A stretch of 64,000 nt of DNA from an uncultured Gammaproteobacteria bacterium (GCA_964540095.1 CAZILH010000001.1:2552-66551), one strand, 5' to 3'. Positions 31,448-63,920 are shown, numbered from the stretch's first letter. Notes: a model not told the origin generated them from the letters alone. Program-made: numbers and translations.

Positions 31448-31455
31448 ATTTTGTT

Positions 31456-32202: not shown

Positions 32203-32232
32203 AATCTAATTGAAGATGTACAAAAAAACCGC

Positions 32233-32931: not shown

Positions 32932-32932
32932 A

Positions 32933-33545: not shown

Positions 33546-33548
33546 AAT

Positions 33549-33689: not shown

Positions 33690-33848
33690 ATAAAATTAAA
33701 TTACCTAAATAAAATAACATATTTACTTAATTTAATCAAGGGGAGCCCTTGGCTCAGCTATACCCACATTTTATTAACAATTTATACACTTTCAATCTTA
33801 TTTGAGCATTTAAAAATATGTGGTATATTTACTGCAGTTTGTAAAAAC
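33690..33848. promoter_or_regulatory. oriC: candidate chromosomal replication origin (oriC) / dnaA promoter region
   Basis: AT-rich intergenic between divergent rpmH and dnaA; degenerate DnaA-box-like 9-mers (ATACCCACA, TTATACACT); second box-like cluster (TTATCAACA, TGCCCACA) in dnaA-dnaN spacer 35220-35452. Confidence 0.45.
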
Positions 33849-35219
33849 ATGGATAATTACGAAAAAATTTGGCAAAGTGTCCTTGGTCAACTGGAATTGT
33901 TGATCAGTAGGGCTAATTTTACCACCTGGTTCAAAAATACTTTTTTGGCCGAGTTTGATAACCAGCAAGTTGTGGTTGGGGTGCCCAATTCCTTTACCAA
34001 GGTTTGGTTAGAAAAAAAATACCACGACCATATTACTAAAGCCCTAGAAGACACCTTATCAAAAAGTAATCTACAAGTTATCTACAGGGTCGAAAATAGA
34101 GAAAATTTAGCTAATATTAGCAAAAATGTTGAGATTGTTGATAAGCCAATTGAGGAGCTTGTGCACAGTCCAAGTCCACAGCCAAAAACAAGCAATAAGT
34201 ATGGTTTAAACCAAAATTATACCTTTAATTCCTTTGTTGTTGGTCCAGGTAATGAGCTGGCCCAGGCAGCGGCCATGGCCGCCGCCCAAAAACCAGGGGA
34301 AATGTATAATCCTTTGTTTATATATGGTGGCGTTGGTTTGGGCAAAACTCACCTAGCTCAGGCCGTTGGCAACTATATTTTGGCTAAAAATCCACAAAAA
34401 AAGGTGCTTTATATAAACAGTGAGAAATTCACCAATGACTTTATTTTTGCCATAAAAAGGGGTCAAACAGACGAATTTAAGAACATTTATCGCAATGTAG
34501 ACGTCTTATTAATAGACGATATTCAGTTTATTGCCGGAAAAGAGCAGACACAAGAGGAGTTTTTTCATACTTTCAATGCTCTACACCAAAATAATAAGCA
34601 AATTGTACTTTCTTCTGATCGGCCACCAAAAGCGCTTGGCGGTGTGGAAAATAGACTAATTTCCCGCTTTGAGTGGGGTATGATTGCTGATATTTCTTTC
34701 CCAGACCTAGAAACTAGAGTGGCTATTTTGGAAATAAAATGCCAACAAAAAAATTATCATTTAGAAAAAGCTTTGACCCAGCTAGTGGCCGAAAGCATTC
34801 AAGAAAATATTCGTGAGCTAGAAGGAGCGCTAAACAGGATTATTGCTTTTCACCAACTGAACAATACGCGACCATCTTTAGAAAGTGTGCGCTCATTGTT
34901 GGGCGGTATTTCCGCTAATCCAAAAAAAGCCGGACTAACCACTAAAAAATTATTAAAAACTGTTATTGAATTTTTTGATATCAGCATGGACGAGTTGCTT
35001 GGTGCTAGTCGCAAAAAAGAATTGGTCATGCCCCGACAAATTGCCATGTACTTGATGCGCGAGCAACTGAAATCATCTTTCCCAAACATTGGACACGAGA
35101 TTGGCAGTCGCGATCACACCACGGCCATGCATGCTTGTGTAAAAATATCTGAATTAGTGGCGACCGATGAGCGCGTAAAAAACGACATTGCTGTGCTCAA
35201 ACAAAAGCTCTATGAATAA
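33849..35219 (+). CDS. dnaA: chromosomal replication initiator protein DnaA
   Basis: AAA+ Walker A GGVGLGKTHL, sensor motifs, C-terminal DNA-binding domain; start set at MDNYEKIWQ. Confidence 0.9.
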   Translation: MDNYEKIWQSVLGQLELLISRANFTTWFKNTFLAEFDNQQVVVGVPNSFTKVWLEKKYHDHITKALEDTLSKSNLQVIYRVENRENLANISKNVEIVDKPIEELVHSPSPQPKTSNKYGLNQNYTFNSFVVGPGNELAQAAAMAAAQKPGEMYNPLFIYGGVGLGKTHLAQAVGNYILAKNPQKKVLYINSEKFTNDFIFAIKRGQTDEFKNIYRNVDVLLIDDIQFIAGKEQTQEEFFHTFNALHQNNKQIVLSSDRPPKALGGVENRLISRFEWGMIADISFPDLETRVAILEIKCQQKNYHLEKALTQLVAESIQENIRELEGALNRIIAFHQLNNTRPSLESVRSLLGGISANPKKAGLTTKKLLKTVIEFFDISMDELLGASRKKELVMPRQIAMYLMREQLKSSFPNIGHEIGSRDHTTAMHACVKISELVATDERVKNDIAVLKQKLYE

Positions 35220-35452
35220 ACTGTTGATTAGTTAGAGCGAAGCTGTGGGCATCTCTTTAAAAATAATTTTTTTCTAAAACTAAAACCAAAATTTCTTTTT
35301 TCTACACAGAGTTATCAGGTGGTGGTGCACAAGGAGAGTTGATAAATAATTGCAAAATCACTGAACAAATACTTTATACAGCGCTAACTTATCAACATAT
35401 GCACCGTGCCTACTACGGCTATATAATATATATATAAATTAATAATAAGTAT

Positions 35453-36559
35453 ATGAAAATCATTTGTACGCAAGAAAATTTAAATTATGGATTGGGGTTG
35501 GTCTCACATATTGCCAATAAAAACAGTAATTTACCCATATTAAACAACGTTTTGATAAAAGCCGAGAAAGAAGGCATTACTTTAATAACCACTGACCTAG
35601 AGATTGGTGTAAAGGTTTTTGTACGCAGTAAAGTAGAGGAGGAGGGCGCCTTTACTGTGGATGCCAAACTATTAAACAGCTTTATTAATTTATTGCCAAA
35701 AGAAAATATTATCCTGACCCTGGGCGAGGACAATAGCTTGGAAGTGAAAAGCAAAAATCAAGACACGGCCATTCGCGGTATGGAAGCTGAGGATTTTCCC
35801 CTTATACCAGAAATCTCCAAAGACAACGAAATTGAGGTTTCGTCCTTGGACCTTAAAAAAAGTTTGAGCCAAGTAATATTTGCCGCCTCACTAGACAACA
35901 CTAGGGTGGAAATAAATGCGGTTAATTTTAATTTCAAAGGAGAACAATTGACCTTGGCCGCTACCGATAGCTATCGTCTGGCTGAAAAGAAAATAAAAAT
36001 TGCCAACCAGAGCAAAGAAAGCAATTTGATAATCCCCCTAAAAACCCTCCAAGAATTACTGCGCATTTTAAATGAAAATTCGGAAAAAAGTTTAAAAATA
36101 TATTTTAATGAAAATCAAATAATGTTTTCACTGGATGGTGTGGAGTTGGTCTCGCGGGTGATTGATGGCAACTATCCGGACTACAAGCAAATTATTCCTG
36201 ATAAATTTAACACCAACATCAAGTGTGATGCCGATAAATTGTTGCCAGCCATAAAAGCGGTGTCGCTTTTTTGTAAGCAGGGGATTAATGATATTCGGGT
36301 TAGTTTTGATAATGCCACTAACGAAATTGTTATTACCACCGCCTCATCGCACGCCGGCAAAAGCTTAGCCAAGGTGCCAGCCGAAATAAAAGGAGAAAAT
36401 AACGACATTATTTTTAACTACCGCTACATTATAGACGGACTAAATAATATTGATCAAAAAGAGGTGTTTATTAATATAAACAACAACACCTCCCCAGGAC
36501 TAATAGGGCCAGTGGGTCAGGAGGACTATATTTATTTGGTTATGCCCATTAGGCAATAG
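35453..36559 (+). CDS. dnaN: DNA polymerase III beta sliding clamp
   Basis: Three-domain clamp about 368 aa, N-terminus MKIICTQENLNYGLGLV; follows dnaA. Confidence 0.9.
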   Translation: MKIICTQENLNYGLGLVSHIANKNSNLPILNNVLIKAEKEGITLITTDLEIGVKVFVRSKVEEEGAFTVDAKLLNSFINLLPKENIILTLGEDNSLEVKSKNQDTAIRGMEAEDFPLIPEISKDNEIEVSSLDLKKSLSQVIFAASLDNTRVEINAVNFNFKGEQLTLAATDSYRLAEKKIKIANQSKESNLIIPLKTLQELLRILNENSEKSLKIYFNENQIMFSLDGVELVSRVIDGNYPDYKQIIPDKFNTNIKCDADKLLPAIKAVSLFCKQGINDIRVSFDNATNEIVITTASSHAGKSLAKVPAEIKGENNDIIFNYRYIIDGLNNIDQKEVFININNNTSPGLIGPVGQEDYIYLVMPIRQ

Positions 36560-36574
36560 CTTGTGGAAATGTTT

Positions 36575-36725
36575 TTTGGCAAATTATTATAAATTTGCTA
36601 TAATATATGGACACTCGAAAATCCCTGCGTCGAACAGGAGTTTCTCGGGCGCTATAGAGATATGTAATTTCAGAAATGAAGCAAAAAACATCCGTGCGCG
36701 ATCTAGGGTGTTTTTTGTTTAAAAA
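36575..36725 (+). ncRNA. small promoter-terminator unit downstream of dnaN (about 100-nt transcript), candidate sRNA or micro-ORF (16 aa)
   Basis: TTGGCA-17-TATAAT promoter ~36578-36606, terminator acatcc...gggtgt plus TTTTTT at ~36695-36720. Confidence 0.25.
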
Positions 36726-52959: not shown

Positions 52960-54381
52960 ATGTCTGTAATGAATAAAATATTTACCAACACTATTTGGCA
53001 GATAATAATAAGGTTTTTTGATGTTATTGTTGGTATTATAAATATCGGAATAATTACTCGTGTTTTGGGTCAAACACAATTTGGTTTTTATACCACGATT
53101 TTTGTATTTTTGCAGACAGTGATGACTATCGGCGATTTTGGTTTGTATTTGACCCTGTTGAATGAAGTATCGGCTACTCAGGACAAAAAAGAAGAGAAAA
53201 AAAGAATCGATAATATTTTTGCTATTCGTCTTGTTTCGGCGTTGGTAATTTTTGCTCTAGCGCCACTATTGATAAAGATTTTTCCTTATGACCAGACAGT
53301 GAAGGTTGGGGTGATTTTTTTAGCAGGCGCATTTTTTTGGCAAAGTTTAGTTTCTACTTTGACAGCCGTGTTTGCCAAGTATTTGGATATGGCCAAAGCA
53401 ACTTTGGCTTATTTGATGGCTAGGGTGATTTATTTATTATCACTCATATACATCTATCAACACAGTGGCACTTTAAATCAAATACTTTTTTGGAACACAC
53501 TTAGCGCGGCCATTGGCTTTTTTGTTTTATTGATTTTTATAAAAAAACACCAGCGTTTGGGGATGGCTTGGGATTTTTTGTATTGGAAAAAAGTTTTTAA
53601 AATTGCTTGGCCATTATCTTTGGGCGTGGTACTCAATCTAGTGTATTTCAAGGCCGACACCTTGATTTTGTCCGCTTATCATTCAGCCGAAAAAGTCGGC
53701 CTCTATGGTGCTGCTTACAAAGTATTGGAGGTCTTAGTGACTTTTCCGCACATGTTTATGGGTTTGATTCTACCACTCTTTGTGGCTTCTTGGGTGAAAA
53801 AAGATTTGGAAAAACTAAGGATCATTCAACAGCATACCTTTGATTTTTTCTCCATTATCAATATTTGGATGATTTTGGTTGTTTGGCTGATGAGCGAAAA
53901 AATTATGCTGTTGATTACTGGTCAAGAGTTTGTCCAGTCAGCACCGATTCTAAACATTTTGGTTTTGGCTGTGGTGGCCATATTTTTTGGCACCATGTTC
54001 ACCTATCTAGTTGTGGCCATGGGTTTGCAGAAAAAAATGCTTAAGTATTATTTTTTGACCGCCATATTTGGCTTGGTCGCTTATTTTCTATTTATTCCCA
54101 AGTATGGCTATTGGGCGGCTGCCATTATTACGGTGCTGGCCGAGGCTTTTGTTTGGGTAGCTGCTTATTTTCTGGTTAAAAAAAGTGCTAATATTAGCTT
54201 AAAAACAGGAGTTTTGGGACGCGCCATATTAGCGGCTATGCTTAGTTTTATTTTATTTTGGTCATTCCGTGATTGGCCAGTAATATTTTTGGGGCTGGCT
54301 GTTTCGGCTTTTTATTTCTTTATGCTTTTTGTTTTACGGGCCATCAAAAAAGACGAGCTAAAAATTATATTAAATAAGTAA
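52960..54381 (+). CDS. MOP-superfamily oligosaccharide/lipid-II flippase (Wzx/MurJ-like)
   Basis: About 473 aa, 12-14 predicted TM helices, Wzx-like pattern; no soluble domains. Confidence 0.55.
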   Translation: MSVMNKIFTNTIWQIIIRFFDVIVGIINIGIITRVLGQTQFGFYTTIFVFLQTVMTIGDFGLYLTLLNEVSATQDKKEEKKRIDNIFAIRLVSALVIFALAPLLIKIFPYDQTVKVGVIFLAGAFFWQSLVSTLTAVFAKYLDMAKATLAYLMARVIYLLSLIYIYQHSGTLNQILFWNTLSAAIGFFVLLIFIKKHQRLGMAWDFLYWKKVFKIAWPLSLGVVLNLVYFKADTLILSAYHSAEKVGLYGAAYKVLEVLVTFPHMFMGLILPLFVASWVKKDLEKLRIIQQHTFDFFSIINIWMILVVWLMSEKIMLLITGQEFVQSAPILNILVLAVVAIFFGTMFTYLVVAMGLQKKMLKYYFLTAIFGLVAYFLFIPKYGYWAAAIITVLAEAFVWVAAYFLVKKSANISLKTGVLGRAILAAMLSFILFWSFRDWPVIFLGLAVSAFYFFMLFVLRAIKKDELKIILNK

Positions 54382-54382
54382 A

Positions 54383-55666
54383 ATGTTGAATTTATTTTTT
54401 ATTTTAATCGCTGGGTTTATCTTTGCTTATGTTGCTAAAAAAAATATTTTGTGGGGTCTGTCACTAATTATTATTTTTTTGCCAAGTTATCTCTGGCGTT
54501 TTCAGATATTGTCCTTACCCTCAACTTTTTTAGAGTTGATGATTTTAATTTTATTTTTTATTTGGCTGATTTATGCCAAGCCCTATAAAAAAGAATTTTG
54601 CTTGGCACAAAAAATAGAAAAAAAATGGTTTTATTTAGCAATGCTCTGGCTAGTAGTCAGCGTGATAGCTTGGCTGTATAATCCAACCATAAAATCTTTG
54701 GGTCTTTGGCGCGCTTATTTTTTGGAGCCGCTATTATTTTTTGTGGTGCTTATCACCAGCTTGAAAAATGAAAAAGATTATCAGACAATAATAAAATCAA
54801 CAGCCATTTTAATTTTTTGGTTGGCTATTTTTGCTATCATCCAAAATTTTACCGGCATCAATTTACCAGCGGCCTTCGATTTTCCGAAAACCAAGAGATT
54901 AACCAGTGTCTTTTTGTATCCCAATTCTTTGAGCTTGCTGACGGCCGGTATTAGCGGATTTTTGGTGGCTTATTATATTTGTGTTCAGCGAAAATGGGAA
55001 TATTTGGCCATCGGGATCTTGGGAATTTTTTTATCTTGGTGGGCAGTCAGTCAAGGGGCCTTGCTGGCCATTTTGTTTGCTCTTATTTTTTTTGGAACAG
55101 TGAAATTATATAAAAAATTAAAAAACAAAAAACAAAAATATTTATTTTTTTTAGTAATCATTTCTTTGTTGTTAATATTTTTTAGTAGTCGCTTAAGAGA
55201 CGACTTTAGCCAACAGCTTTTTCATCCAGTTCTTGATTTGCAGGCCACATCGCTAGAAATACGTAGTAGTCAGTGGCAAGAAACTTATGCCCTGCTCAAA
55301 GACAATTGGCTAAAAGGTGCTGGGCTTAATGGTTACCAAATAAAATCAGTGCCTTATCATAAGACAGCCTGGCTAGAAATATACTTATATCCGCACAATA
55401 TATTTTTAAATTTTTGGGTGGAGTTGGGATTCCTTGGCTTGCTGGCTTTTTTGTCCTTACTTTATTTTATTGCCCAAGAAATAAAAAAAATATTTTTGTC
55501 CAAGAATAAATTGGCTTGGCCACTGTTGATTTTTTGGCTTATCTGGTTGATTCATGGCCTGGTTGATGCGCCTTATTTCAAAAATGACCTAAGTTTATTG
55601 TTTTTTGTATTTTTAGCACTGACCGCACAAGCTAAAAATATAAAAACAATTTACAAAGAAGCGTAA
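54383..55666 (+). CDS. Wzy_C-domain membrane protein (O-antigen ligase / PglL-like O-oligosaccharyltransferase family)
   Basis: Multi-TM protein with the larger periplasmic loop toward the C-terminal third, as in the Wzy_C family. Confidence 0.5.
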   Translation: MLNLFFILIAGFIFAYVAKKNILWGLSLIIIFLPSYLWRFQILSLPSTFLELMILILFFIWLIYAKPYKKEFCLAQKIEKKWFYLAMLWLVVSVIAWLYNPTIKSLGLWRAYFLEPLLFFVVLITSLKNEKDYQTIIKSTAILIFWLAIFAIIQNFTGINLPAAFDFPKTKRLTSVFLYPNSLSLLTAGISGFLVAYYICVQRKWEYLAIGILGIFLSWWAVSQGALLAILFALIFFGTVKLYKKLKNKKQKYLFFLVIISLLLIFFSSRLRDDFSQQLFHPVLDLQATSLEIRSSQWQETYALLKDNWLKGAGLNGYQIKSVPYHKTAWLEIYLYPHNIFLNFWVELGFLGLLAFLSLLYFIAQEIKKIFLSKNKLAWPLLIFWLIWLIHGLVDAPYFKNDLSLLFFVFLALTAQAKNIKTIYKEA

Positions 55667-55684
55667 TTTTAGTATAATATACAT

Positions 55685-56551
55685 ATGCAAAAGATTAGGA
55701 AGGCAGTAATTCCGGTGGCGGGATTTGGCACTAGATTTTTACCAGCCACCAAAGCCCAGCCCAAGGAAATGTTGACTGTGGTTGATAAACCAATCATCCA
55801 ATACATTGTGGAAGAGGCCGTGCAGTCCGGTATTGAAGAAATAATTTTTGTTACTTCAGCTAATAAGCGCGCCATTGAAGATCATTTTGATCGCAATTTT
55901 GAACTAGAATACCGCCTTCGTCAGAAGGGGAAAAAAACAGAATTGGCCGAGATGCTAAAAATTTCGGACATGGCCAAATTTATTTATGTCCGACAAAAAA
56001 CACCAAAGGGCTTGGGACACGCTGTATTGACTGCTCGAGAGCTGATTGGTGACGAGCCATTTGTGGTAATTGCTGGCGATGACATTATTGATTCCAAGGT
56101 GCCAGCCATAAAACAATTAATGCGGGTTTATGAAAAATACGAAGACATAGTTTTGGGTGTCACCAAAGTCAACAAAAAAGAAACCCACAAATACGGCATT
56201 ATTGATCCCCTAAAAATTGATGAGCACACAGCGGAAATAAAAAAGTTAATTGAAAAACCTGCCCCCAGCAAAGCGCCTTCCAACTTGGCTGTCACTGGCC
56301 GCTATATATTGACCCCAGAGATATTTGATTTCTTGGCCAAGCAAAAAGCCGGCGCTGGCAATGAGATTCAGCTGACTGATGCTATTGCCCGCTATATCAA
56401 AGAGCGAGCTGGCTACGCCTGTCTTTATGAGGGAGATTATTATGACTGTGGCAACAAGCTGGAGTTCATGAAGGCCATTATAAATTTTGGTCTAAAAAGA
56501 TCGGCCTTCAAGAAAGAATTAAAAAAATATTTACGTCAAATAGTAAATTAA
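55685..56551 (+). CDS. galU: UTP--glucose-1-phosphate uridylyltransferase
   Basis: KAVIPVAGFGTRFLPATKAQPKEML N-terminal GalU signature. Confidence 0.85.
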   Translation: MQKIRKAVIPVAGFGTRFLPATKAQPKEMLTVVDKPIIQYIVEEAVQSGIEEIIFVTSANKRAIEDHFDRNFELEYRLRQKGKKTELAEMLKISDMAKFIYVRQKTPKGLGHAVLTARELIGDEPFVVIAGDDIIDSKVPAIKQLMRVYEKYEDIVLGVTKVNKKETHKYGIIDPLKIDEHTAEIKKLIEKPAPSKAPSNLAVTGRYILTPEIFDFLAKQKAGAGNEIQLTDAIARYIKERAGYACLYEGDYYDCGNKLEFMKAIINFGLKRSAFKKELKKYLRQIVN

Positions 56552-56552: not shown

Positions 56553-57917
56553 ATGCGTGGCTACAAAATAATTACATTATTATTAATCGGAGTGTTTGTC
56601 ATCACCTCTGGTTTTGGTTGTAAGGGCTTGGGTTGTTCTACAGATGTTGCTAGTCAACCCGTAGCTTTGACCTACTGGGGAGTGTGGGATAGCCCCACGC
56701 AAGTAGCTGGTTTGATACAGGATTATCAGGCTAGCCACCCTACTGTGAAAATCATCTACAAACAACTTCGCTATGAAGAATACGAAAGAAAATTATTAGA
56801 GGCCTGGGCTGATGATCGGGGGCCAGATATTTTTGCCATTCCCGCTAGCTGGCTCAATAAATACCAAAATCGCATTGTGCCCATGCCTAGTAAAGTCCAA
56901 ATTCCAGTGCAAGAAATAAAAGGCACTATAAAAAAAGAAACGGTTGTCACCTTGCAGACAGTCACAGGACTTCGTGCTGATGAAGTCAAAAATCAGTATG
57001 TTGATGTGGTATACAACAATGTTGTCAAAAATAATCAAATCTATGCTCTGCCATATTCGCTAGACACACTGGTCACTTTTTATAACGAAGATTTGCTTGA
57101 TCAGGCTAGCTTGCCTGAAAAAATTATCACCTTCAATGATCTGGTGGACCAGACCAGTCAGCTGACCAAAGTGACTACTGATAATAAAATAGTCCAATCA
57201 GGCGTGGCTTTGGGTACTGCCGACAATATACCAAGATTTTTTGATATAGTTTCTAGTTTGATGCTCCAGACCGAGGTTAATCTGAAGGGCGCAAAGTTTA
57301 ATCCAGTTGGCGGAGAGCAATCAGCCGCCAGATTTCGAGAAGCCATAAATTTTTATATCAGCTTTGCTCGACCGGGCTTGGCCTCATATTCTTGGGATAA
57401 GAGTTTGCCCAATGCTTTTGATATGTTTAGCTCTGGCAAACTAGCTTACTTCTTTGGCTATAGCTATCACGCTGACGCTTTGCGTAAAGCGGGCGTGCCA
57501 TTTGAATGGGGTATTACCAATTTTCCACAAACTGAAGGATCACAAGGTACAAAATATTATGCTGATTACTGGGTCAATGTTGTGGCCAAAAAGTCCAAGA
57601 ACCAAGGCGTGGCTTGGAACTTTGTTCAAAACACCGCTAGCGCCCAAAATGTCAAAAAATATTTGGATCAAAACAAAAAACCAACTGCCTTGCGTTCATT
57701 GATCACTGAGCAAAAGAATAACCCCGACATTGCTCCTTTTGCCAATCAGGTTTTGACAGCCGACAACTGGTATACTGGTTATGATTATCCCAAAGCTGAA
57801 AGTTACATGGCCGAGTTTATCAATGGTCTAGCTGACAACAAAATTGATATCAACAACCAGTCAGATTTGAAATTATTTATTGATAGAATAAATCAAACCT
57901 ACCAACCCAGCCAATGA
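56553..57917 (+). CDS. extracellular solute-binding lipoprotein (ABC transporter SBP family 1, sugar-type)
   Basis: Lipoprotein signal (ITSGFGC), SBP_bac_1-like length and pattern; no adjacent permease genes. Confidence 0.7.
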   Translation: MRGYKIITLLLIGVFVITSGFGCKGLGCSTDVASQPVALTYWGVWDSPTQVAGLIQDYQASHPTVKIIYKQLRYEEYERKLLEAWADDRGPDIFAIPASWLNKYQNRIVPMPSKVQIPVQEIKGTIKKETVVTLQTVTGLRADEVKNQYVDVVYNNVVKNNQIYALPYSLDTLVTFYNEDLLDQASLPEKIITFNDLVDQTSQLTKVTTDNKIVQSGVALGTADNIPRFFDIVSSLMLQTEVNLKGAKFNPVGGEQSAARFREAINFYISFARPGLASYSWDKSLPNAFDMFSSGKLAYFFGYSYHADALRKAGVPFEWGITNFPQTEGSQGTKYYADYWVNVVAKKSKNQGVAWNFVQNTASAQNVKKYLDQNKKPTALRSLITEQKNNPDIAPFANQVLTADNWYTGYDYPKAESYMAEFINGLADNKIDINNQSDLKLFIDRINQTYQPSQ

Positions 57918-58600
57918 AATATTTTAAAATAATAATTTTAGTAGCCCTTGCTTTGCCGCTAATAGCTTTTGCGCAAACAACACCGCCAGGGTTTTTGGAC
58001 TCCTTGAGTTGTGTCACTGATGGGGATTGCCAATTAGCTGATGTGGCCACGGGTTTTATTTTGTTGACCAAGTTATTGCTTGGCGCTATGGGAGCGGTGG
58101 CCTTGTTGTACTTTGTGATTGGTGGCTTCCAGTGGATGACCTCACAGGGCAACCAAGAAAAAGTGCGTAAAGGCCAGCAGACCATGACCAACACCGTCAT
58201 TGCTTTGTTCATTGCTTTTACTAGTTATTTACTATTGAACTTTTTTGTCAATAATATTTTGGGAGTAAAGAGTGATTATATGATCGGCGATGCCCTAGCT
58301 CAGTGCGATGGCAAGTCAGATGGCACGGCCTGCAACGTGGTTGCTGGTAGCACCTCCATCAATCCCTACGAATGTTTTTCTGAAGAGTGTGTCACTAAAT
58401 GTAAGGTAAAAGCCAATATGACTAGTTTGAATTGGCAGTGTTATACTGTACCGAATCCAGAATTAATATCAACAGACACTACTTATTATGAGAGAAACCT
58501 GTGTCCTGGTGATGAACACACTGTTTGCACTTTATTAAATGCCAGTGGAGAACCAGCTGATCCAGCTTATCAAGCATTCTTGCATCGTTTTGTTCCTTGA
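57914..58600 (+). CDS. pilin-like 2-TM protein (VirB2/TrbC-like topology) fused to C-terminal Cys-rich extracellular domain
   Basis: Sec signal (AFA-QTT), conserved paralog core LLLGAMGAVALLYFVIGGFQWMTSQGNQEKVRKGQQT...IALFIAFTSYLLLNF, then about 100-aa domain with at least 10 Cys. Confidence 0.5.
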   Translation: MKYFKIIILVALALPLIAFAQTTPPGFLDSLSCVTDGDCQLADVATGFILLTKLLLGAMGAVALLYFVIGGFQWMTSQGNQEKVRKGQQTMTNTVIALFIAFTSYLLLNFFVNNILGVKSDYMIGDALAQCDGKSDGTACNVVAGSTSINPYECFSEECVTKCKVKANMTSLNWQCYTVPNPELISTDTTYYERNLCPGDEHTVCTLLNASGEPADPAYQAFLHRFVP

Positions 58601-58616
58601 TTATAAAATTATATAT

Positions 58617-58943
58617 ATGAAAAAAATAATAAATTTGTTTTGGCTGGCCACTCTTCCTATTTCTGCTTGGGCAGCCGATGGAAAAATTGAGCTAGAAAAT
58701 CCGGTGTCAGCAAACAGTGTGCCGGAGCTCATCAACACGGTAATCAAAGCTATCTTAGGTATAGTTGGCGCCGTAGCTTTGTTGTATCTGGTTTTGGGTG
58801 GCTTTACTTGGCTCACTTCCCAAGGCAATCCGGAAAAAGTAAAGAAAGGTAGAGAAACACTGGTCTGGGCAATATTTGGCCTAGCTATGATTTTCTTTAG
58901 CTACGTGATATTAAATTATGTCTTTACCGAATTTTTGTCTTGA
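58617..58943 (+). CDS. pilin-like 2-TM small secreted protein (VirB2/TrbC-like), paralog 2
   Basis: Sec signal (AWA-ADG); core AILGIVGAVALLYLVLGGFTWLTSQGNPEKVKKGRETLVWAIFGLAMIFFSYVILNYV. Confidence 0.5.
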   Translation: MKKIINLFWLATLPISAWAADGKIELENPVSANSVPELINTVIKAILGIVGAVALLYLVLGGFTWLTSQGNPEKVKKGRETLVWAIFGLAMIFFSYVILNYVFTEFLS

Positions 58944-59032
58944 TGTTTTGTGGTTTTTGGACTATAATATTATTAGTAAAAAGTACCTTGTTATTAATTA
59001 TTAAAATCTTAAAAATGAGAGGAGGTGAAGAA

Positions 59033-59398
59033 ATGAAAAAATTATTAGTTGCTTTAATGCTTTTAGCGCCAAGTATGGCCATGGCTCAAGCTCCTGACAT
59101 AAGTGAAGATCCATTTGGTCGCAATACCCTAGGAGAGCTTTCAACAGCGGGTGAAAGCAAAGACATATTTGTGGTAATTTCAAATATTACGAATATCATC
59201 TTGACTTTCTTAGGCGCGATTGCCGTCTTGTTATTCCTTTATGGTGGATTCAAATGGTTCACTTCTCAGGGTAACAGTGAGCAAATTGAAGCTGCCAAGA
59301 AAATCATGGGCGCCGCCGTTGTTGGCTTGGCCATTATTTTCGCTTCATACGCCGCCGCTCAATACATCTTTGATCAATTATCAAATCAACTTTTATAG
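59033..59398 (+). CDS. pilin-like 2-TM small secreted protein (VirB2/TrbC-like), paralog 3
   Basis: GAGGAGGTG RBS; Sec signal (AMA-QAP); core LTFLGAIAVLLFLYGGFKWFTSQGNSEQIEAAKKIMGAAVVGLAIIFASYAAAQYI. Confidence 0.5.
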   Translation: MKKLLVALMLLAPSMAMAQAPDISEDPFGRNTLGELSTAGESKDIFVVISNITNIILTFLGAIAVLLFLYGGFKWFTSQGNSEQIEAAKKIMGAAVVGLAIIFASYAAAQYIFDQLSNQLL

Positions 59399-59471
59399 CG
59401 GTATATTTGAACTCAGACATATAGTCTAGACTATAGTAGGCAAACTTTTTGCCTACTAAGGTGTGAATTAT

Positions 59472-59855
59472 ATGTATCAATATATTATTTCCTTATTTCT
59501 ATTGTTGCCTTTTACTGCCCTAGCAGTGAATCCTTTGGACTCTTTGAATGAAGCGGCTGGAGGCACTGGCTTGGTGAGTAATAAAACTCCGATTCAAATT
59601 ATTACCTCCATTATCAACACCATCCTTTATTTTGTGGGGGCCATAGTTATTGTTCTGATGCTTTGGGCGGGTTTCAAGTGGATGACCTCAGCTGGCAACA
59701 CCGACGCCATCAAAAAATCTAGAGAAACTATTATCAATGCCGTGATTGGCTTGGTAATTATTTTCGCTTCATATGTAATAGTCAATTATGTAATGCTAAG
59801 ATTGATTGAGGGTATTGGTGTTGGGGGTGTAACGGGCTCCACGGTTATTGATTAA
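59472..59855 (+). CDS. pilin-like 2-TM small secreted protein (VirB2/TrbC-like), paralog 4
   Basis: Sec signal (ALA-VNP); core ILYFVGAIVIVLMLWAGFKWMTSAGNTDAIKKSRETIINAVIGLVIIFASYVIVNYV. Confidence 0.5.
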   Translation: MYQYIISLFLLLPFTALAVNPLDSLNEAAGGTGLVSNKTPIQIITSIINTILYFVGAIVIVLMLWAGFKWMTSAGNTDAIKKSRETIINAVIGLVIIFASYVIVNYVMLRLIEGIGVGGVTGSTVID

Positions 59856-59887
59856 TTAATATTAGATTTTTATAAAAATAAATAACG

Positions 59888-59916
59888 GCTCCAATCTATC
59901 ATCGATTGGAGCCGTG
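59888..59916. terminator. bidirectional terminator hairpin ggctccaatc/gattggagcc
   Basis: 10-bp perfect stem, A-run upstream (T-run on minus strand) between convergent pilin paralog 4 and GC-rich lipoprotein gene. Confidence 0.55.
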
Positions 59917-59935: not shown

Positions 59936-60583
59936 CTAGTGGATCAAGAACACTGCGTCGACAGCGCGACCTTTATAAGGCACCTTATGGCCAGGTGCCA
60001 AGTAATGATAGCGATGTCCTATTGTGGCATAGGTGTTTGCGTTTGCGAGTCGCCAGCTGAGAAAGTACTCACCATCGACAACGAACAAGGTTTTGTCCTC
60101 AAAGGTTTTGAGGATAAAGGTATTACCTCGCCCATCAGCAAAGCTCAGGGGCATCGGGCTGGTGTTCTCCACAACGATTTCCAACTTTGCCCAGTTGCGG
60201 AGTAGATCCTCGGTGATGGTGATGGCTTGGTTGAATAGGCCAACACCCCTGTAGTGTTGTACTCGCAACTCGCCGTTGTAGCCAACCACTTCCTTCCAGG
60301 AGACTTCGTAGTCGAAGTACTTCTTGGAGGTGAACTCGACTGGCAGGGAGTCCCTGTAGGCCACCGGCATGAAAACCCCGCCATTCACAGCGATCGATAC
60401 CCAGCCGTCGTATTGCTGGTAAAAACCGATGCTGGTGATCGGTTTATCATCCCCGTAGGGATGATCCAACGGGCGACCTTCTCGGTCTTGGTAATCGACA
60501 CCCAGGCCAAAGGGCAGGCGGCCAGCGCAGCCACAGAGCGGTAGCAGGGCCACCAGGCACAGGGAAACAAACACGTTACGCAT
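59936..60583 (-). CDS. GC-rich cassette: lipoprotein of unknown function
   Basis: Consensus TTGACA-17-TATAAT promoter and GAGGTG RBS upstream (RC of ~60584-60680); lipobox LPLCGC; about 55% GC. Confidence 0.5.
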   Translation of the reverse strand: MRNVFVSLCLVALLPLCGCAGRLPFGLGVDYQDREGRPLDHPYGDDKPITSIGFYQQYDGWVSIAVNGGVFMPVAYRDSLPVEFTSKKYFDYEVSWKEVVGYNGELRVQHYRGVGLFNQAITITEDLLRNWAKLEIVVENTSPMPLSFADGRGNTFILKTFEDKTLFVVDGEYFLSWRLANANTYATIGHRYHYLAPGHKVPYKGRAVDAVFLIH

Positions 60584-60730
60584 ATAGCACCTCACTTGTT
60601 CAAGGTTCGGATTCATGCCCAAAATAGGGCTTTTACTAACATTATATTATATACTAAATATCAATATTTGTCAATGTCACACTTTAAAAACAAGCCGACG
60701 GCTTGAATTTGGTGTGCTATAATTATACTG

Positions 60731-62620
60731 ATGAATTTTGTCAGTAGAATAAAATTCGACATAACCAAACACAGCCCAAGATATCTGTGGGGCAGTATTC
60801 TGGTCTTTATTTTGTTTTTTACTTTTTTGGTTCTCAAGAAATATTATTATTTTGGTTACAACATTTCTGACTTGGGTATTTTTAACCAAACTTTTTTCAA
60901 TACTTTACATGGTCGTTGGTTTGCTGAAACCATTACCTTGAACAATTATCTAGCTGATCATTTTTCACCGGCCCTGCTTTTGCTGTTGCCGTTTTATGCC
61001 ATCAAGCCATCAGCCAGCACCTTGCTGATTATTCAAGTGATAATTACCGCTCTATCAGCTTGGCCAATTTATCTTATTGCCAAAAAATATTCTAGCAATG
61101 TCATCTTTGCTTATGGCGTAGCTTTTTTGTGGCTGACCAATCCTTTTGTGCATCGTCAGGTATTATTTGAGTTTCATATGTTGCACCTGATGGTCTTTTT
61201 GTTTTTTTGGGCTTTTTATTTTTATCAGCAAAAAAAGACCAAGTGGTTTGTATTGTTTTTCATTCTCACCCTACTTACTCGTGAAGATACTGCTTTTTTG
61301 TTTTTGGGTCTGGCCTTGTTTAGTTTGTTAGAAAAAAGGTCACTAAAGTTTAGTATAAATATTTTTATTAGCTCATTAGTATATTTTTTGGTGGCGGTTT
61401 ATATTATCAGTTTGGTTTCGCCAGCCAATAGTTTCAAATTTTTGGTATATTATGATTGGCTGGGGGGCGATAGCATGTTTAGCATTATTTTTAACTGGCT
61501 GAAGCACCCCTTGGCCGTGCTTGGTCACATTTTTACCACAAATAATATTGTTCTTATTTTTTATTATTTTTTACCATTTCTTTTTATTCCGTTTTTAGCC
61601 AAAAAATATTTACTTTTGTCGCTAGTTCCATTTTTGTTATATCTGATGAAGAATGGTGGCATCAATGGCGTCCAGTTACAAACGCACTATGTCATGTTTT
61701 TGATGCCCGGAATTTTCTTGGCCTATATTTTTGGGCTTTGGTTCATATTTAGTAAAAAAAATGTTCAAAAATTAGGACTGGTTTATAAACACCGGCCATT
61801 TTTTATTGCCCTATTTGTTTTTTCAATTTTATTTTTTGTGATATTTGACACACCCATTTTTTCAGTACTTAGCAAGAAATTTTTACCAAATTACCATCAA
61901 GATAGGCAAAAAATAATTGACCTAATTCCAGCCCAGGCAACAGTGTGCGCGGATTCGTCATTTTTACCGGCCTTGAGCACACGCAGAGAGATCTACAATA
62001 TTGATTATGCTTATTACGGCAAGACAATATTTGCGGAAAGAGATTTTAGCTTGCCAAAAGTAGATTATATCTTGATGGATATGAGCCAATTTATTTCCAC
62101 CAAAAATGATAGTAATAGCCCGCTATATTGGAAACATGGCGATCCACTGACTATGCCGGATCGCTGGGGGGCTGTTTTGGCGGATTACAACTTGACTTAT
62201 GCCAAAGATAATATTTTTTTGTGGCAGAGCAAGGGCACTTCTGGCCAAAAGGGCTGGCCTTATTTTGAGCTTGGGTCAGTGGCGAGCGGAGAAGATGGTC
62301 TGCTCAAGGACTGGTCATTAACACGGTCTTCTGAAGGGCAGACATTAAAAATAAATTACAATAATTTGGACTCCAATTATTATCTAGTCAGATTTTATCA
62401 GAACGACCAATATTGGGAAGTGCTTTTTGATTATGGGCTTTATTCTTTGGCACAAAACAAAGCCGGGCAAACAGCAACAGTTTATTATTATTTGAACAGC
62501 CAAGTTGACTCCTTTGAGATTTATCATTATGAGAGTCGCAATGTTTTGGGCGACTGGAGTAACTTGGGCCTGCTTATCAAAAGAGAAAAAGTATTTGACA
62601 GAGCTTATTTTAGCCAATAA
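60731..62620 (+). CDS. large polytopic membrane protein, putative GT-C-type glycosyltransferase (ArnT/PMT/DUF2079-like) with C-terminal soluble domain
   Basis: About 11 TM helices in N-terminal 430 aa plus about 190-aa extracytoplasmic domain; classification by architecture only. Confidence 0.45.
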   Translation: MNFVSRIKFDITKHSPRYLWGSILVFILFFTFLVLKKYYYFGYNISDLGIFNQTFFNTLHGRWFAETITLNNYLADHFSPALLLLLPFYAIKPSASTLLIIQVIITALSAWPIYLIAKKYSSNVIFAYGVAFLWLTNPFVHRQVLFEFHMLHLMVFLFFWAFYFYQQKKTKWFVLFFILTLLTREDTAFLFLGLALFSLLEKRSLKFSINIFISSLVYFLVAVYIISLVSPANSFKFLVYYDWLGGDSMFSIIFNWLKHPLAVLGHIFTTNNIVLIFYYFLPFLFIPFLAKKYLLLSLVPFLLYLMKNGGINGVQLQTHYVMFLMPGIFLAYIFGLWFIFSKKNVQKLGLVYKHRPFFIALFVFSILFFVIFDTPIFSVLSKKFLPNYHQDRQKIIDLIPAQATVCADSSFLPALSTRREIYNIDYAYYGKTIFAERDFSLPKVDYILMDMSQFISTKNDSNSPLYWKHGDPLTMPDRWGAVLADYNLTYAKDNIFLWQSKGTSGQKGWPYFELGSVASGEDGLLKDWSLTRSSEGQTLKINYNNLDSNYYLVRFYQNDQYWEVLFDYGLYSLAQNKAGQTATVYYYLNSQVDSFEIYHYESRNVLGDWSNLGLLIKREKVFDRAYFSQ

Positions 62621-62624: not shown

Positions 62625-63920
62625 CTAGTAAGCTATTTTATAAATTAGAAAATATTTATCTTCATAGGATAAGGAAATATTCCGGTCTTTTTTTATATTG
62701 GTGATTAAGTTTTCGTGCCGATTTTTTTCCACAAAAATATAGCTACTTTTAAAATTATTTTTGATTTCCCAAGCGAGATTGTCTTTTAGGTCGCCCTTGG
62801 TGATATCAATGTATTTTTTTTGTAAATCCGGATGCGAAAAATACATAAAAGAAAAATCTAAGCCAACAATATAATAATTGTGGTCGTTATAATAAAAAAG
62901 CATTGGCCACTCGTCCCAGTCCTCGTGGAAGATTACGCTATTTTTGGGGGTGTTGTTTTTTAGCCAATTGGCACTTGACTGGTAGCGATCAATTGAGAGA
63001 TCTTTGGGTGTTTTGGTATCTAATATTTTTTTGTAAATATTTGGTTGCGCAATAATACAAAAAACAGCCAAATAAATTAATAAAAATGTTTTTTGCCATT
63101 TAAGCAGAGAGCGCAAGTATTTGGTAATTGTTTTAAAGCCAATTTTTTTAATAATATCAGTCCAAGCACTGGCTGTAAAAATTAATAAAAAAGGAAGATA
63201 ATATTCAACAAAGCGGTATGATTTTAGGGTCAATAACAAAAATAAAAAGCTTAGCAAAAAACTAAACCAGCTTAAATGGCTAATTTTTTTGTAATTGAAA
63301 AACAAAATTATTATGGCCATGATTCCCAAAATAAAAAAATAATCGCCCGAATGTATTACTTGCGGGATTGAGCGACCATACCACTCGCCACCAACAGAAA
63401 AAAGATAGCCATAGTTAATGACTCCGATTAGAAAAAATTGTTCGTAATAAAATTTTAGATTATAAGGAAAGTAGGGGTTGATTATTACGCCAGCCAACAA
63501 ACCGCTCATCAAGAATAGTAAGGTTTTTTTATCAGCAATGAATTTGTTTTTATCATCCCAAGATATGAGTAGGCGCCGGTGAAAGAGCTTGATTTTTTTG
63601 TGGTGTATAAAATCGTAAATGGTTGTCGCTAGCAAAAAAATAAGTCCCAGCAAAAAGGCGATCGGCCAGCCACCATAGAGCCAAACAAAAAGAAATCCCA
63701 AAGTAAAAATCAGCCAGCGCTTTTTGTAATACAAAGCATAAATAAAAAAGCAGATAAATATTAAAGATAAGCTATTTACTTTGATTAGGGTTAGGCGAAA
63801 AGTAAGATCTGGCAAGCTGATTAGCAAAAAAGCCCACAACCACGGCCAGACAATGTTTAGCTTTTTAAATAGCCAGTAGAAAGTTAGCCCCATTAAAGCG
63901 GCAAAAAATACTGTGGCCAC
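62625..63920 (-). CDS. polytopic membrane protein, putative GT-C-like glycosyltransferase/polymerase
   Basis: About 10 TM helices followed by C-terminal soluble domain; convergent with preceding gene. Confidence 0.4.
   Translation of the reverse strand: MATVFFAALMGLTFYWLFKKLNIVWPWLWAFLLISLPDLTFRLTLIKVNSLSLIFICFFIYALYYKKRWLIFTLGFLFVWLYGGWPIAFLLGLIFLLATTIYDFIHHKKIKLFHRRLLISWDDKNKFIADKKTLLFLMSGLLAGVIINPYFPYNLKFYYEQFFLIGVINYGYLFSVGGEWYGRSIPQVIHSGDYFFILGIMAIIILFFNYKKISHLSWFSFLLSFLFLLLTLKSYRFVEYYLPFLLIFTASAWTDIIKKIGFKTITKYLRSLLKWQKTFLLIYLAVFCIIAQPNIYKKILDTKTPKDLSIDRYQSSANWLKNNTPKNSVIFHEDWDEWPMLFYYNDHNYYIVGLDFSFMYFSHPDLQKKYIDITKGDLKDNLAWEIKNNFKSSYIFVEKNRHENLITNIKKDRNISLSYEDKYFLIYKIAY

What the first reader, a model, noticed from the sequence alone, without database searches (positions are those of the whole stretch)
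57914..59855. Tandem array of four paralogous Sec-secreted two-TM pilin-like proteins (VirB2/TrbC-like topology), one fused to a Cys-rich domain
Four consecutive genes share the conserved core [IL]xxxGAxAxLxxVxGGFxWxTSxGNxExxxKxxxxxxxxxxGLxxIFxSYxxxNY. This is a cleavable AxA signal peptide, then hydrophobic helix 1, a short polar loop (TSQGN), then hydrophobic helix 2. That topology matches T4SS pilins of the VirB2/TrbC family rather than type IV (prepilin-peptidase) pilins. The first paralog carries an extra C-terminal domain of about 100 aa with at least 10 cysteines. No VirB4/VirB6/VirD4 genes are nearby. Instead the array sits between a flippase/Wzy_C/galU/SBP cluster and two GT-C-like polytopic membrane proteins, suggesting a glycosylated surface filament or other non-conjugative use. 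Intergenic regions contain perfect palindromes (14-bp atagtctagactat and 11-bp tagtaggcaaa/tttgcctacta at ~59420-59459).
Basis: partly seen in the sequence, partly recalled or inferred. Interest (0 to 1): 0.75.

Follow-up and report, generated by a model that had tools for sequence, protein, structure and literature searches.

The report
VirB2-like pilin gene array in Patescibacteria
These four genes are a real array of conjugative-type (VirB2-like) pilin genes from an ultrasmall candidate-phyla-radiation (CPR) bacterium, a kind of array already published, but here it sits in a conserved sugar-related gene module with a conserved RNA hairpin that has not been described.

Summary
Four adjacent + strand genes (57914-59855) each encode a Sec signal peptide (AxA), two hydrophobic helices and a basic TSxGN loop. 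All four pass the Pfam gathering cutoff for PF18895 (T4SS_pilin), and two sit at the TrbC/VirB2 cutoff. The organism is a Patescibacteria MAG, and NCBI already calls the ortholog 'pilin'. Arrays of 2-11 VirB2-like pilins in Patescibacteria are published (Wang 2023; Quinonero-Coronel 2025), so the kind is known.

The following was not found in the papers searched:
- The array is one part of a module, galU - solute-binding lipoprotein - Cys-rich pilin - pilins - DUF2079/GT-C. The module recurs in about 45 loci and was recovered independently through the SBP.
- No P-loop ATPase or T4SS gene lies in the window or in any flank.
- The four genes are 1:1 orthologs across genomes. Gene 3 has its own promoter and a near-perfect Shine-Dalgarno sequence.
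It covaries and has no Rfam match. In this window it buries the Shine-Dalgarno sequence and AUG of gene 4.
- The Cys-rich domain matches no Pfam family or PDB fold.

Best reading: gene 3 is the major subunit and gene 1 an adhesin-bearing minor subunit of a T4SS-type pilus. A pilus-independent membrane role is not excluded.

The parts
55650..55678 (+). Promoter-like site (TTTACA-17-TATAAT) in front of galU. It is the likely start of a galU-SBP-P1-P2 transcript.
   Evidence: 11 of 12 consensus matches. The genes downstream are packed: a 1-nt gap, a 4-nt overlap and a 16-nt gap. The transcript itself is inferred.
55685..56551 (+). galU (UTP-glucose-1-phosphate uridylyltransferase). It lies immediately upstream of the SBP wherever that flank is present in the related loci examined.
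   Evidence: TIGR01099 galU 379.6 bits against a cutoff of 326.8. Synteny.
56553..57917 (+). Carbohydrate-type extracellular solute-binding protein with a lipoprotein-like signal (…SGFGC). Its stop codon overlaps the ATG of pilin 1 (ATGA).
   Evidence: Relatives carry PF01547/PF13416. Weak GanS/MalE matches. Hydrophobic N-terminus with Cys23. The same gene precedes the pilin array in loci found through pilin 1, through the hairpin and through the SBP itself. No ABC permease or ATPase gene lies in the window.
57914..58600 (+). Pilin 1: signal peptide (aa 1-20), GFLD + CX5C segment, VirB2-like two-helix core (aa ~41-115) and a C-terminal 8-Cys domain (aa ~125-228, nt 58286-58600).
58617..58943 (+). 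Pilin 2 (108 aa), a short VirB2-like pilin.
   Evidence: PF18895 57.4 bits; PF04956 27.6 bits against a cutoff of 27.9. Topology. Orthologs at the same array position, 49-99% core identity.
58940..58968 (+). Promoter-like site TTGATG-17-TATAAT in the P2-P3 spacer. The -35 hexamer overlaps the P2 stop codon.
   Evidence: 10 of 12 matches. A TTGnnn-17-TATAAT/TATACT site lies in the same spacer in most related loci.
59033..59398 (+). Pilin 3 (121 aa), the candidate major subunit.
   Evidence: PF18895 33.9 bits. Preceded by GAGAGGAGGTGA or GAAAGGGGGTGA 6-8 nt before the ATG in 21 of the 22 loci printed and in L067. Followed by the hairpin. Its exposed N-terminal segment is the most variable part: 46% identity against 82-86% for the core. 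The 'major subunit' role is inferred.
59417..59475 (+). Conserved intercistronic RNA hairpin. It contains the invariant 16-nt palindrome TATAGTCTAGACTATA (59420-59435) and a covarying apical stem. In this window the 3' arm contains the Shine-Dalgarno sequence (AAGGUG, 59457-59462) and the AUG (59472) of pilin 4.
   Evidence: MFE -27.6 kcal/mol, z -6.8 on the sense strand; -20.2 on the antisense strand. 39 distinct copies give 94.7% paired cells against 30-41% when slid. Seven pairs have double changes and 0 of 500 shuffles reach the score. One-sided G-C/G-U and U-A/U-G changes favour sense-strand RNA. The covariance model finds exactly one copy per locus searched, 70-80 bits sense against 33-52 antisense. 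No Rfam match.
59472..59855 (+). Pilin 4 (127 aa) with a short Gly-rich C-terminal tail.
   Evidence: PF18895 36.3 bits; PF04956 27.9 bits, equal to the cutoff. Its start is inside the hairpin. It is the least conserved position, 57% core identity between genomes.
59885..59915 (.). G+C-rich hairpin between the convergent pilin 4 and lipoprotein genes. It is terminator-like.
   Evidence: 12-pair stem with 7 G-C pairs and a T-run on the minus strand. 15-nt arms, 93% complementary.
59936..60622 (-). Conserved 228-aa predicted lipoprotein of unknown family, convergent with the array. Its G+C content is unusually high.
   Evidence: No Pfam or NCBIfam match. A 210-233-aa minus-strand gene sits at the same place in most related loci. 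50-57% G+C against about 40% around it. Its role is unknown.
60731..62620 (+). DUF2079 polytopic membrane protein (GT-C-like, surface glycopolymer formation). It recurs downstream of the array.
   Evidence: PF09852 199.5 bits. Weak NF046093 match. Present after the array in the distant loci L065-L067 and in many others.
62625..63920 (-). 431-aa membrane protein ORF (527-535 aa in relatives) with a weak STT3-like match.
   Evidence: TIGR04154 archaeo_STT3 E 2e-6, far below the cutoff. No Pfam match. Conserved position.
52960..55666 (+). Context: Wzx-type flippase (52960-54381) and a Wzy_C family protein (54383-55666). They are often but not always linked to the module.
   Evidence: PF01943/PF13440 and PF04932. 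Absent upstream of galU in L031, L042 and L067.

Best explanation
The four genes encode VirB2/TrbC-superfamily pilins of the Patescibacteria-specific branch (Pfam PF18895).

Shown here:
- Each product has a Sec-type signal with an AxA cleavage site and two hydrophobic helices joined by a basic loop.
- The four genes are old, non-redundant paralogs kept 1:1 across genomes.
- They belong to a conserved chromosomal module: galU - sugar-type solute-binding lipoprotein - pilin carrying a Cys-rich domain - short pilins - RNA hairpin - pilin(s) - DUF2079/GT-C-like proteins. The module lies about 24 kb from dnaA.

Inferred:
- The subunits insert into the membrane with both ends outside and the basic loop inside.
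- A VirB4-type machine encoded elsewhere in the genome extracts them and polymerises them into a conjugative-type pilus or pilus stub.
- P3 is the major subunit. It has its own promoter, a near-perfect Shine-Dalgarno sequence, a 3' hairpin and the most variable exposed segment.
- P1 is a low-copy subunit. It is made by translational coupling to the SBP and shows its disulfide-rich domain on the outside, as a tip or adhesin.
- P2 and P4 are minor subunits.
- The hairpin after P3 acts in the mRNA. It protects or ends the P3 message and, in this genome, masks the ribosome-binding site and AUG of P4. Together these set the ratio of subunits.
- The constant company of GalU, an SBP and GT-C-like enzymes suggests that the filament is glycosylated or works in sugar capture from a host cell.
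For: Family:
- PF18895 is above the cutoff for all four genes, and PF04956 is at the cutoff for two.
- The near-cutoff match to the Mycoplasma ICE pilin-like family NF045849 scores 36.3 against 40.
- NCBI names the 92%-identical ortholog 'pilin' in a Patescibacteria MAG.
- The family is huge: 74,520 clusters at 50% identity match the array's profile at E<=0.001.

Topology.

Orthology: core identity is 57-71% at the same array position and 27-40% between positions, over 11 loci.

Module. It was recovered independently from three SBP homologs of only 41-43% identity.

P3 expression signals. Its exposed segment is variable.

Hairpin. More distant arrays carry unrelated strong hairpins at the same position (L065 -23 kcal/mol, L066).

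Cys-rich domain:
- It is always in the first pilin.
- It is C-terminal here and in L067 but N-terminal (after the signal peptide) in L065 and L066.
- Both ends are extracytoplasmic in this topology.

Literature:
- VirB4 is found in 2,417 of 3,035 Patescibacteria assemblies.
- Pilin genes lie near virB4 in only 1,135 of 1,948 assemblies.
- 441 arrays of 2-11 pilins have been reported (PMC12102498).
- The pilin array of S. epibionticum is essential (PMC10633639).
Against: - No T4SS gene is linked. There is none in 64 kb here.
- No unassigned ORF of >=450 aa with a Walker A motif occurs in any of the 67 fetched loci.
- Whether this genome has VirB4 at all could not be tested.
- By the reviews read, no T4SS pilus has yet been seen on any Patescibacterium (PMC12857230 speaks of a 'potential to elaborate conjugative pili').
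- Sequence and fold searches do not reach any solved VirB2/TraA pilin. No PDB sequence hit appears. The best pilin fold hit, 8dfu, has E 2.2.
- Family members exist as single chains of 2-15 pilin units. This is hard to fit with a helical polymer of free subunits.
- The roles assigned to P1-P4 and to the hairpin rest on gene signals only.
- The hairpin has no U-tract. In the L015-type loci its 3' arm does not contain the start codon.
Confidence: 0.55

Rival explanations
1. The products are VirB2-fold membrane proteins that do not form a T4SS pilus. They stay in the membrane as hetero-oligomers. There they work with the solute-binding lipoprotein and the GT-C-like enzymes in sugar uptake or in building a surface glycopolymer.
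For: - The array is strictly linked to galU, the SBP and DUF2079, and never to a T4SS ATPase, in about 45 loci.
- The SBP has no ABC permease partner in the window.
- It is translationally coupled to pilin 1.
- Family members occur with 8-15 units fused into one polytopic chain.
Against: - The only homology signals point to conjugative pilins.
- In Saccharibacteria the same family lies inside the T4SS cluster and is essential (PMC10633639, PMC12857230).
- About 40% of Patescibacteria pilin genes lie away from virB4 anyway (PMC12102498).
- A strongly expressed subunit with a variable exposed end looks like a polymer subunit.
Confidence: 0.27
2. The array serves variation. The paralogs are interchangeable major pilins used in turn to match different hosts or to escape recognition, as proposed for Bartonella and Anaplasma virB2 paralogs.
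For: - Divergence within the array is low-identity (27-42% core identity).
- This idea is offered for Patescibacteria arrays in PMC12102498.
- The exposed segments are more variable than the cores.
Against: - Each position has a 1:1 ortholog in all 11 loci compared, and no turnover, gain or conversion is seen among the close relatives.
- The four genes have very different expression signals and architectures: coupled with no Shine-Dalgarno sequence; own promoter with a perfect Shine-Dalgarno sequence; masked Shine-Dalgarno sequence.
- No recombination repeats are present. The only repeat is the single hairpin.
Confidence: 0.08
3. The palindrome is a DNA operator for a dimeric regulator or a recombinase site, not an RNA element.
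For: The 16-nt perfect palindrome TATAGTCTAGACTATA is invariant in all 12 loci found without using it as a query, while the neighbouring stem covaries. That argues for sequence-specific recognition.
Against: - One-sided changes keep G-U pairs on the sense strand only.
- The sense strand scores 25-35 bits higher with the covariance model and folds 7 kcal/mol better.
- There is one copy per locus, so there are no partner sites for inversion.
- The two readings are not exclusive. A protein may bind the RNA.
Confidence: 0.1

Closest known systems
VirB2-like pilin arrays of Patescibacteria: six essential pilins in the T4SS cluster of Southlakia epibionticum ML1, and 441 arrays of 2-11 genes in 383 assemblies (PMC10633639, PMC12102498, PMC12857230)
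   Same: - Same protein family (PF18895/PF04956) and same phylum.
- Tandem, sequence-divergent paralogs; the published figures are 25% average identity within an array and 54% maximum.
- Chromosomal and close to the replication origin.
   Different: - This array is not in or near a T4SS cluster.
- It is embedded in a galU-SBP-...-DUF2079 module.
- The first gene carries a Cys-rich domain.
- A conserved RNA hairpin follows the third gene.
- None of these four points appears in the papers read.
Conjugative pilins VirB2 (Ti plasmid), TrbC (RP4) and TraA (F)
   Same: - A long signal peptide cleaved by signal peptidase I.
- Two hydrophobic helices with a basic loop that faces the lumen in the pilus.
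- Both ends outside.
- HMM score at the PF04956 cutoff.
   Different: - No linked VirB4, VirB6 or other T4SS genes, and a monoderm host.
- No evidence for cyclisation or acetylation.
- No detectable similarity to solved pilins.
- Four subunit types rather than one.
virB2 paralog arrays of Bartonella and Anaplasma
   Same: Several divergent virB2 copies in tandem.
   Different: Those are thought to serve antigenic or host-range variation. Here the copies are stable 1:1 orthologs with distinct expression signals.
Chaperone-usher fimbrial operons such as pap: a stem-loop after the major subunit gene sets the ratio of major to minor subunits (own knowledge)
   Same: A strongly expressed subunit gene is followed at once by a stable hairpin, with minor subunit genes downstream.
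   Different: - The protein family and assembly route are unrelated.
- The hairpin here has an invariant palindrome and, in this genome, also masks the next gene's start site.
O-glycosylation of type IV pilins by Wzy_C-family enzymes (PglL, TfpO/PilO) (own knowledge)
   Same: A Wzy_C gene, a flippase and a nucleotide-sugar enzyme lie next to pilin genes.
   Different: - The pilin class is different.
- No test of glycosylation was possible.
- The Wzy_C and flippase link is not universal in related loci.

Membership tests
Pfam PF18895 T4SS_pilin | HMM score at or above the curated gathering cutoff (26.6 bits) | tested here: met
   35.2, 57.4, 33.9 and 36.3 bits for P1-P4. The same family is precomputed for the orthologs.
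Pfam PF18895 T4SS_pilin | Small secreted protein with a signal peptide and a two-helix hydrophobic hairpin | tested here: met
   Hydropathy and AxA sites. AlphaFold helices 41-76 and 81-115 in P1.
TrbC/VirB2 conjugative pilins (PF04956) | HMM score at or above the gathering cutoff (27.9 bits) | tested here: inconclusive
   P4 27.9 (equal to the cutoff), P2 27.6, P3 17.6, and P1 no match.
TrbC/VirB2 conjugative pilins (PF04956) | Encoded with the T4SS machine (VirB4, VirB6, VirB3/8, coupling protein) | tested here: not met
   None in the 64-kb window. None within +-10 kb in relatives. No unassigned large Walker-A ORF in any fetched locus. Presence elsewhere in the genome could not be tested.
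TrbC/VirB2 conjugative pilins (PF04956) | Similarity to solved pilin structures | tested here: inconclusive
   No PDB sequence hit. The best pilin fold hit, 8dfu (A. pernix conjugation pilus), has E 2.2 and probability 0.41. Helical hairpins are generic.
TrbC/VirB2 conjugative pilins (PF04956) | Polymerises into an extracellular pilus with bound phospholipid | not testable with these tools
   Needs cryo-EM or cryo-ET. No multimer prediction was available.
Patescibacteria VirB2-like pilin arrays (PMC12102498) | Two or more PF18895/PF04956 genes in tandem in a Patescibacteria genome, with low identity within the array | tested here: met
   Four genes. 27-42% core identity between positions. The organism is a Patescibacteria group MAG.
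Type IV (prepilin-peptidase) pilins | Class III signal peptide: short basic leader, G|F/M cleavage site, Glu at +5, and a single N-terminal hydrophobic helix | tested here: not met
   The N-termini are MKYFKIIILVALALPLIAFA|Q and similar, with AxA sites and two later TM helices. No T4P Pfam match at E<=1.
Any Rfam family (for the hairpin) | Covariance-model match | tested here: not met
   Only tRNAs pass gathering scores in the window. Nothing covers 59417-59475 even at E<=10.
ABC-importer solute-binding proteins (PF01547/PF13416), for the upstream gene | SBP fold family match, and adjacent permease and ATPase genes | tested here: inconclusive
   The family match is recorded for most homologs. 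The window protein gives only weak NCBIfam matches. No permease or ATPase lies in the window or in the related flanks.

The most novel reading that the evidence does not exclude
The module galU - SBP - Cys-rich pilin - pilins - GT-C enzymes may be a self-contained surface system of Parcubacteria-type CPR bacteria. In it, VirB2-fold subunits assemble without a classical VirB4 machine, or far from one, into a glycosylated filament or membrane array. That structure would present an orphan sugar-binding protein and a new disulfide-rich adhesin domain to a host cell. Subunit ratios would be set by a previously undescribed structured RNA carrying an invariant 16-nt palindrome.
Probability: 0.2. Interest if true: 0.8.

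Novelty: new variant of a known kind. Interest (0 to 1): 0.45.

Why it matters
The role of the T4SS and its pilin arrays is an open question for Patescibacteria. They are essential in the one species tested, and no function or filament is known (PMC11665869, PMC12857230).

This locus shows a second, widespread genomic setting for such arrays. It is unlinked to the secretion machine and fixed next to a sugar-binding lipoprotein, GalU and GT-C-like enzymes. It also carries clear signals for one major and several minor subunits.

This yields concrete, testable predictions:
- which subunit is the major one;
- which subunit is the adhesin;
- that the structure is glycosylated or sugar-directed;
- that an RNA hairpin sets the stoichiometry.

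It also adds a candidate new RNA motif and a new small disulfide-rich domain.

Tried and rejected
- **Type IV pilins:** rejected. There is no class III signal and there are two TM helices.
- **Phage holin or mobile element:** rejected. The neighbours are housekeeping genes (rpoBC, ftsK, recA, dnaA/dnaN) and synteny is stable.
- **The FtsK gene as a disguised coupling protein:** rejected. It has the 4TM, alpha and gamma domains of true FtsK.
- **PDB sequence search with the array profile:** only spurious hits, Pizza proteins at E>=0.05.
- **Palindrome as a sigma-70 promoter:** rejected. The -35-like hexamers lie at different offsets in different loci, and the spacing to TATAGT is only 12-14 nt.
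- **Hairpin as a canonical intrinsic terminator:** not supported. There is no U-tract.
- **Metagenome hits:** five of the 46 hits to the 18-mer lie in TAG-rich low-complexity DNA with no pilin ORFs. They were set aside as chance.
- **L017 and L018:** these solo 297-312-aa pilin fusions in related MAGs were checked as possible T4SS loci. They contain no T4SS genes.
- **VirB4 elsewhere in this genome:** could not be tested.

Full report
**1. Observation**

The region 57914-59855 holds four consecutive + strand ORFs. Judged by start codons and ribosome-binding sites, the genes are:
- P1, 57914-58600 (228 aa);
- P2, 58617-58943 (108 aa);
- P3, 59033-59398 (121 aa, ATG behind GAGGAGGTGA);
- P4, 59472-59855 (127 aa, ATG behind AAGGTG).

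They align over a common core with 18 invariant columns, among them G60, A61, G71, F72, W74, T76, S77, G79, N80, F102, S104 and Y105. Each has the same layout:
- a hydrophobic N-terminal signal ending in AFA, AWA, AMA or ALA;
- a polar segment of about 20-30 residues;
- a hydrophobic helix;
- the loop W-x-TS-x-GN followed by K/R residues;
- a second hydrophobic helix.

The AlphaFold model of P1 gives helices 41-76 and 81-115. P1 has 10 cysteines, two before helix 1 and eight in the C-terminal extension. All ten are invariant in 21 homologs. The palindromes are real.

**2. Family**

All four proteins exceed the Pfam gathering cutoff of PF18895 (T4SS_pilin): 35.2, 57.4, 33.9 and 36.3 bits against 26.6. 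PF04956 (TrbC/VirB2) scores 27.9 for P4 and 27.6 for P2 against a cutoff of 27.9. NCBIfam gives a near-cutoff match to the Mycoplasma ICE pilin-like family NF045849 (36.3 against 40).

A 92%-identical ortholog is named 'MAG: pilin [Patescibacteria group bacterium]' at NCBI. A profile of the four paralogs matches 74,520 clusters (50% identity) at E<=0.001, so the family is very large.

No solved pilin is reached by sequence. None is reached convincingly by fold either. The A. pernix conjugation pilus 8dfu appears only at E 2.2. Type IV pilin features are absent.

**3. Genomic setting**

The window is housekeeping chromosome. It contains trmD, rpsP, smc, rnc, nusB, ssb, rnhB, then yidC-rnpA | dnaA-dnaN, where the GC skew changes sign. 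These are followed by ruvA, femAB, murein ligase, rpoB, rpoC, ftsK, recA, a flippase, Wzy_C, galU and an SBP. After the four pilins come a convergent lipoprotein, DUF2079 and a weakly STT3-like membrane protein.

Every ORF of 400 aa or more is assigned. None is VirB4, VirD4 or VirB6, and the small unassigned ORFs do not look like T4SS parts. The array lies about 24 kb from dnaA.

**4. Conservation of the array and its module**

Relatives with 48-92% identical P1 keep the same gene order: ftsK to galU-SBP-four pilins-lipoprotein-DUF2079. Over 11 loci, core identity is 57-71% between genes at the same array position and only 27-40% between positions. Each window paralog finds its best match at the same position, except P4 in the two most distant loci. 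The duplications are therefore old and each copy is retained.

The SBP stop codon overlaps the P1 start codon (ATGA), and the two ORFs are likewise contiguous or overlapping in relatives.

As an independent test I started from the SBP (795 homologs at E<=1e-10) and looked up three homologs of only 41-43% identity. All three sit in galU-SBP-[Cys-rich pilin]-3 to 8 pilins-DUF2079. In those distant loci the first pilin is again Cys-rich. The Cys-rich domain is N-terminal in L065 and L066 and C-terminal in L067. Both ends of a VirB2-type protein are extracytoplasmic, which suits a disulfide-rich exposed domain.

In none of the 67 fetched loci is there an unassigned ORF of >=450 aa with a Walker A motif. 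Two solo long pilin fusions in related MAGs also lack T4SS neighbours.

**5. The Cys-rich domain**

**6. Expression signals**

- galU, SBP, P1 and P2 are tightly packed behind a promoter-like site at 55650-55678 (11/12).
- P1 has no Shine-Dalgarno sequence and is coupled to the SBP.
- The P2-P3 spacer has a promoter-like TTGATG-17-TATAAT (58940-58968; 10/12). An equivalent site is present in most related loci.
- P3 is preceded by GAGAGGAGGTGA or GAAAGGGGGTGA 6-8 nt before the ATG in 21 of the 22 loci printed and in L067.
- P3's exposed N-terminal segment is the most variable part of the array: 46% against 82-86% for its core.

From this I infer that P3 is the abundant, surface-forming subunit.

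**7. The palindromes are one conserved RNA hairpin**

The two palindromes are parts of a 28-nt-arm inverted repeat, 59417-59444 / 59448-59475. It starts 18 nt after the P3 stop codon.

- **Conservation.** The 18-mer TAGTCTAGACTATAGTAG is identical in all 15 loci first fetched by protein similarity that include this junction, even where the pilins are only 35-60% identical. It occurs once per locus and once in the window, where 0 are expected by chance.
- **Distribution.** An exact-match scan of metagenomes gave 46 loci. In 41 of them the motif lies between two pilin ORFs, 8-32 nt after one and 40-86 nt before the next. The other five are TAG-rich low-complexity DNA.
- **Covariation.** On 39 distinct copies the consensus is a 21-pair stem with small internal loops. 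94.7% of cells pair, against 30-41% when the partner is slid. The covariation score is 0.317 against 0.04-0.10. No shuffle out of 500 reaches it, and seven pairs have changes on both sides.
- **Strand.** Many one-sided changes are G-C to G-U or U-A to U-G, which keep pairing only in sense-strand RNA. The covariance model scores the sense strand 70-80 bits and the antisense strand 33-52, and finds exactly one copy per locus searched. The window copy folds at -27.6 kcal/mol (z -6.8) against -20.2 for the antisense strand.
- **Selection bias.** The left arm is invariant in the metagenome set by construction, because it was the search pattern. In L067, found through the SBP, the 16-nt palindrome TATAGTCTAGACTATA is still intact, while GUAGG/CCUAC has changed to ACCCG/UGGGU. 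The palindrome is therefore constrained in sequence, and the rest in structure.
- **Relation to P4.** In the window type the 3' arm contains the Shine-Dalgarno sequence and the AUG of P4. In the L015 type it does not.
- **Analogous hairpins.** L065 and L066 have unrelated strong hairpins at the same position.
- **Rfam.** There is no match.

I read it as an mRNA element that ends or stabilises the P3 message and limits expression of the downstream pilin(s). RNase III is encoded in the window and is a plausible partner. The invariant palindrome suggests a sequence-specific binding factor. All of this is inference.

**8. What is known**

Three sources cover this kind of array.
- **PMC10633639.** The T4SS cluster of S. 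epibionticum holds a series of predicted pilins that are essential.
- **PMC12102498.** This paper used PF04956 and PF18895 on 3,035 genomes.
  - VirB4 was found in 2,417 assemblies.
  - Pilins were found in 1,948 VirB4-positive assemblies, near virB4 in 1,135 of them.
  - It reports 441 arrays of 2-11 pilin genes in 383 assemblies, with 25% mean identity within arrays.
- **PMC12857230.** This review notes that these are the only monoderm T4SSs with VirB2-like genes and that a pilus is only a possibility.

The tandem VirB2-like array as such is therefore a known kind. In the papers I read and in full-text searches I found none of the following: the galU-SBP linkage, a Cys-rich first pilin, position-specific orthology, or the hairpin.

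**9. Verdict**

The most likely mechanism is a set of one major (P3) and three minor subunits, with P1 carrying an exposed disulfide-rich domain. They would form a T4SS-type pilus assembled by a machine encoded elsewhere, with subunit ratios set by separate promoters, translational coupling and an RNA hairpin. My confidence is about 0.55.

The main rival is a pilus-independent membrane or glycan-related role together with the SBP and GT-C enzymes (about 0.27). It is supported by the complete lack of T4SS linkage and by the existence of poly-pilin chains.

Novelty: a new variant of a known kind. Interest: moderate.

Noticed in passing
proteins P0026, P0032, P0038 and others: Many of the best-scoring family members listed are single polypeptides with 2-15 tandem pilin units behind one signal peptide. 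Examples are P0026 (820 aa, 8 units) and P0038 (1775 aa, 15 matched stretches). P0026 and P0032 read as continuous chains of repeated TM1-loop-TM2 units. Such 'poly-pilins' are hard to fit with a polymer of free subunits.
   Followed up: partly
window 59936-60622 (- strand): The conserved 228-aa lipoprotein gene convergent with the array has 50-57% G+C in a roughly 40% G+C genome. It has no family match. A similar-sized minus-strand gene follows the array in most relatives.
   Followed up: partly
window 29200-30500: Two further G+C-rich islands (55-58%) lie beside tRNA-Arg(CCT), in a stretch (28.3-31 kb) with few convincing ORFs, just before the origin region. The 228-aa ORF 29756-30442 has no Pfam match.
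   Followed up: no
window 31000-36600: This looks like the replication origin region. It has yidC and rnpA on the minus strand and dnaA (33636-35219) and dnaN (35453-36559) on the plus strand, with the GC skew changing sign near 31-33 kb. The pilin module is therefore about 24 kb from the origin on the leading strand.
   Followed up: partly
L017:9905-10843 and L018:9992-10885: Related MAGs also carry solo 297-312-aa PF18895 pilin fusions at other chromosomal sites. Their neighbours include an MgtE-type transporter, a DEAD-box helicase and a GH3 glycosidase. They have no SBP, no hairpin and no T4SS genes.
   Followed up: partly
L012, L013, L014 (record titles): Three MAGs that carry this typical Patescibacteria module are titled 'uncultured Gammaproteobacteria bacterium'. 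This is probably mislabelling or bin contamination.
   Followed up: no
L065:11407-12048, L066:3781-4689: In distant versions of the module the Cys-rich domain of the first pilin sits between the signal peptide and helix 1, instead of after helix 2. The placement is swapped but the domain stays on the extracytoplasmic side.
   Followed up: partly
window 19036-23808 (- strand): An 834-aa protein with three lamin-tail domains and a PKD domain is followed by three secreted or anchored proteins (171, 337 and 207 aa) with no family match. This may be another surface-protein cluster.
   Followed up: no
window 62625-63920 (- strand): The STT3-like membrane protein ORF is 431 aa here (GTG start) but 527-535 aa in relatives. 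It may be truncated, frameshifted or wrongly started near the window end.
   Followed up: no
window 3180-4310 and 31004-31447: There are two bactofilin-domain genes, one of them 376 aa long.
   Followed up: no
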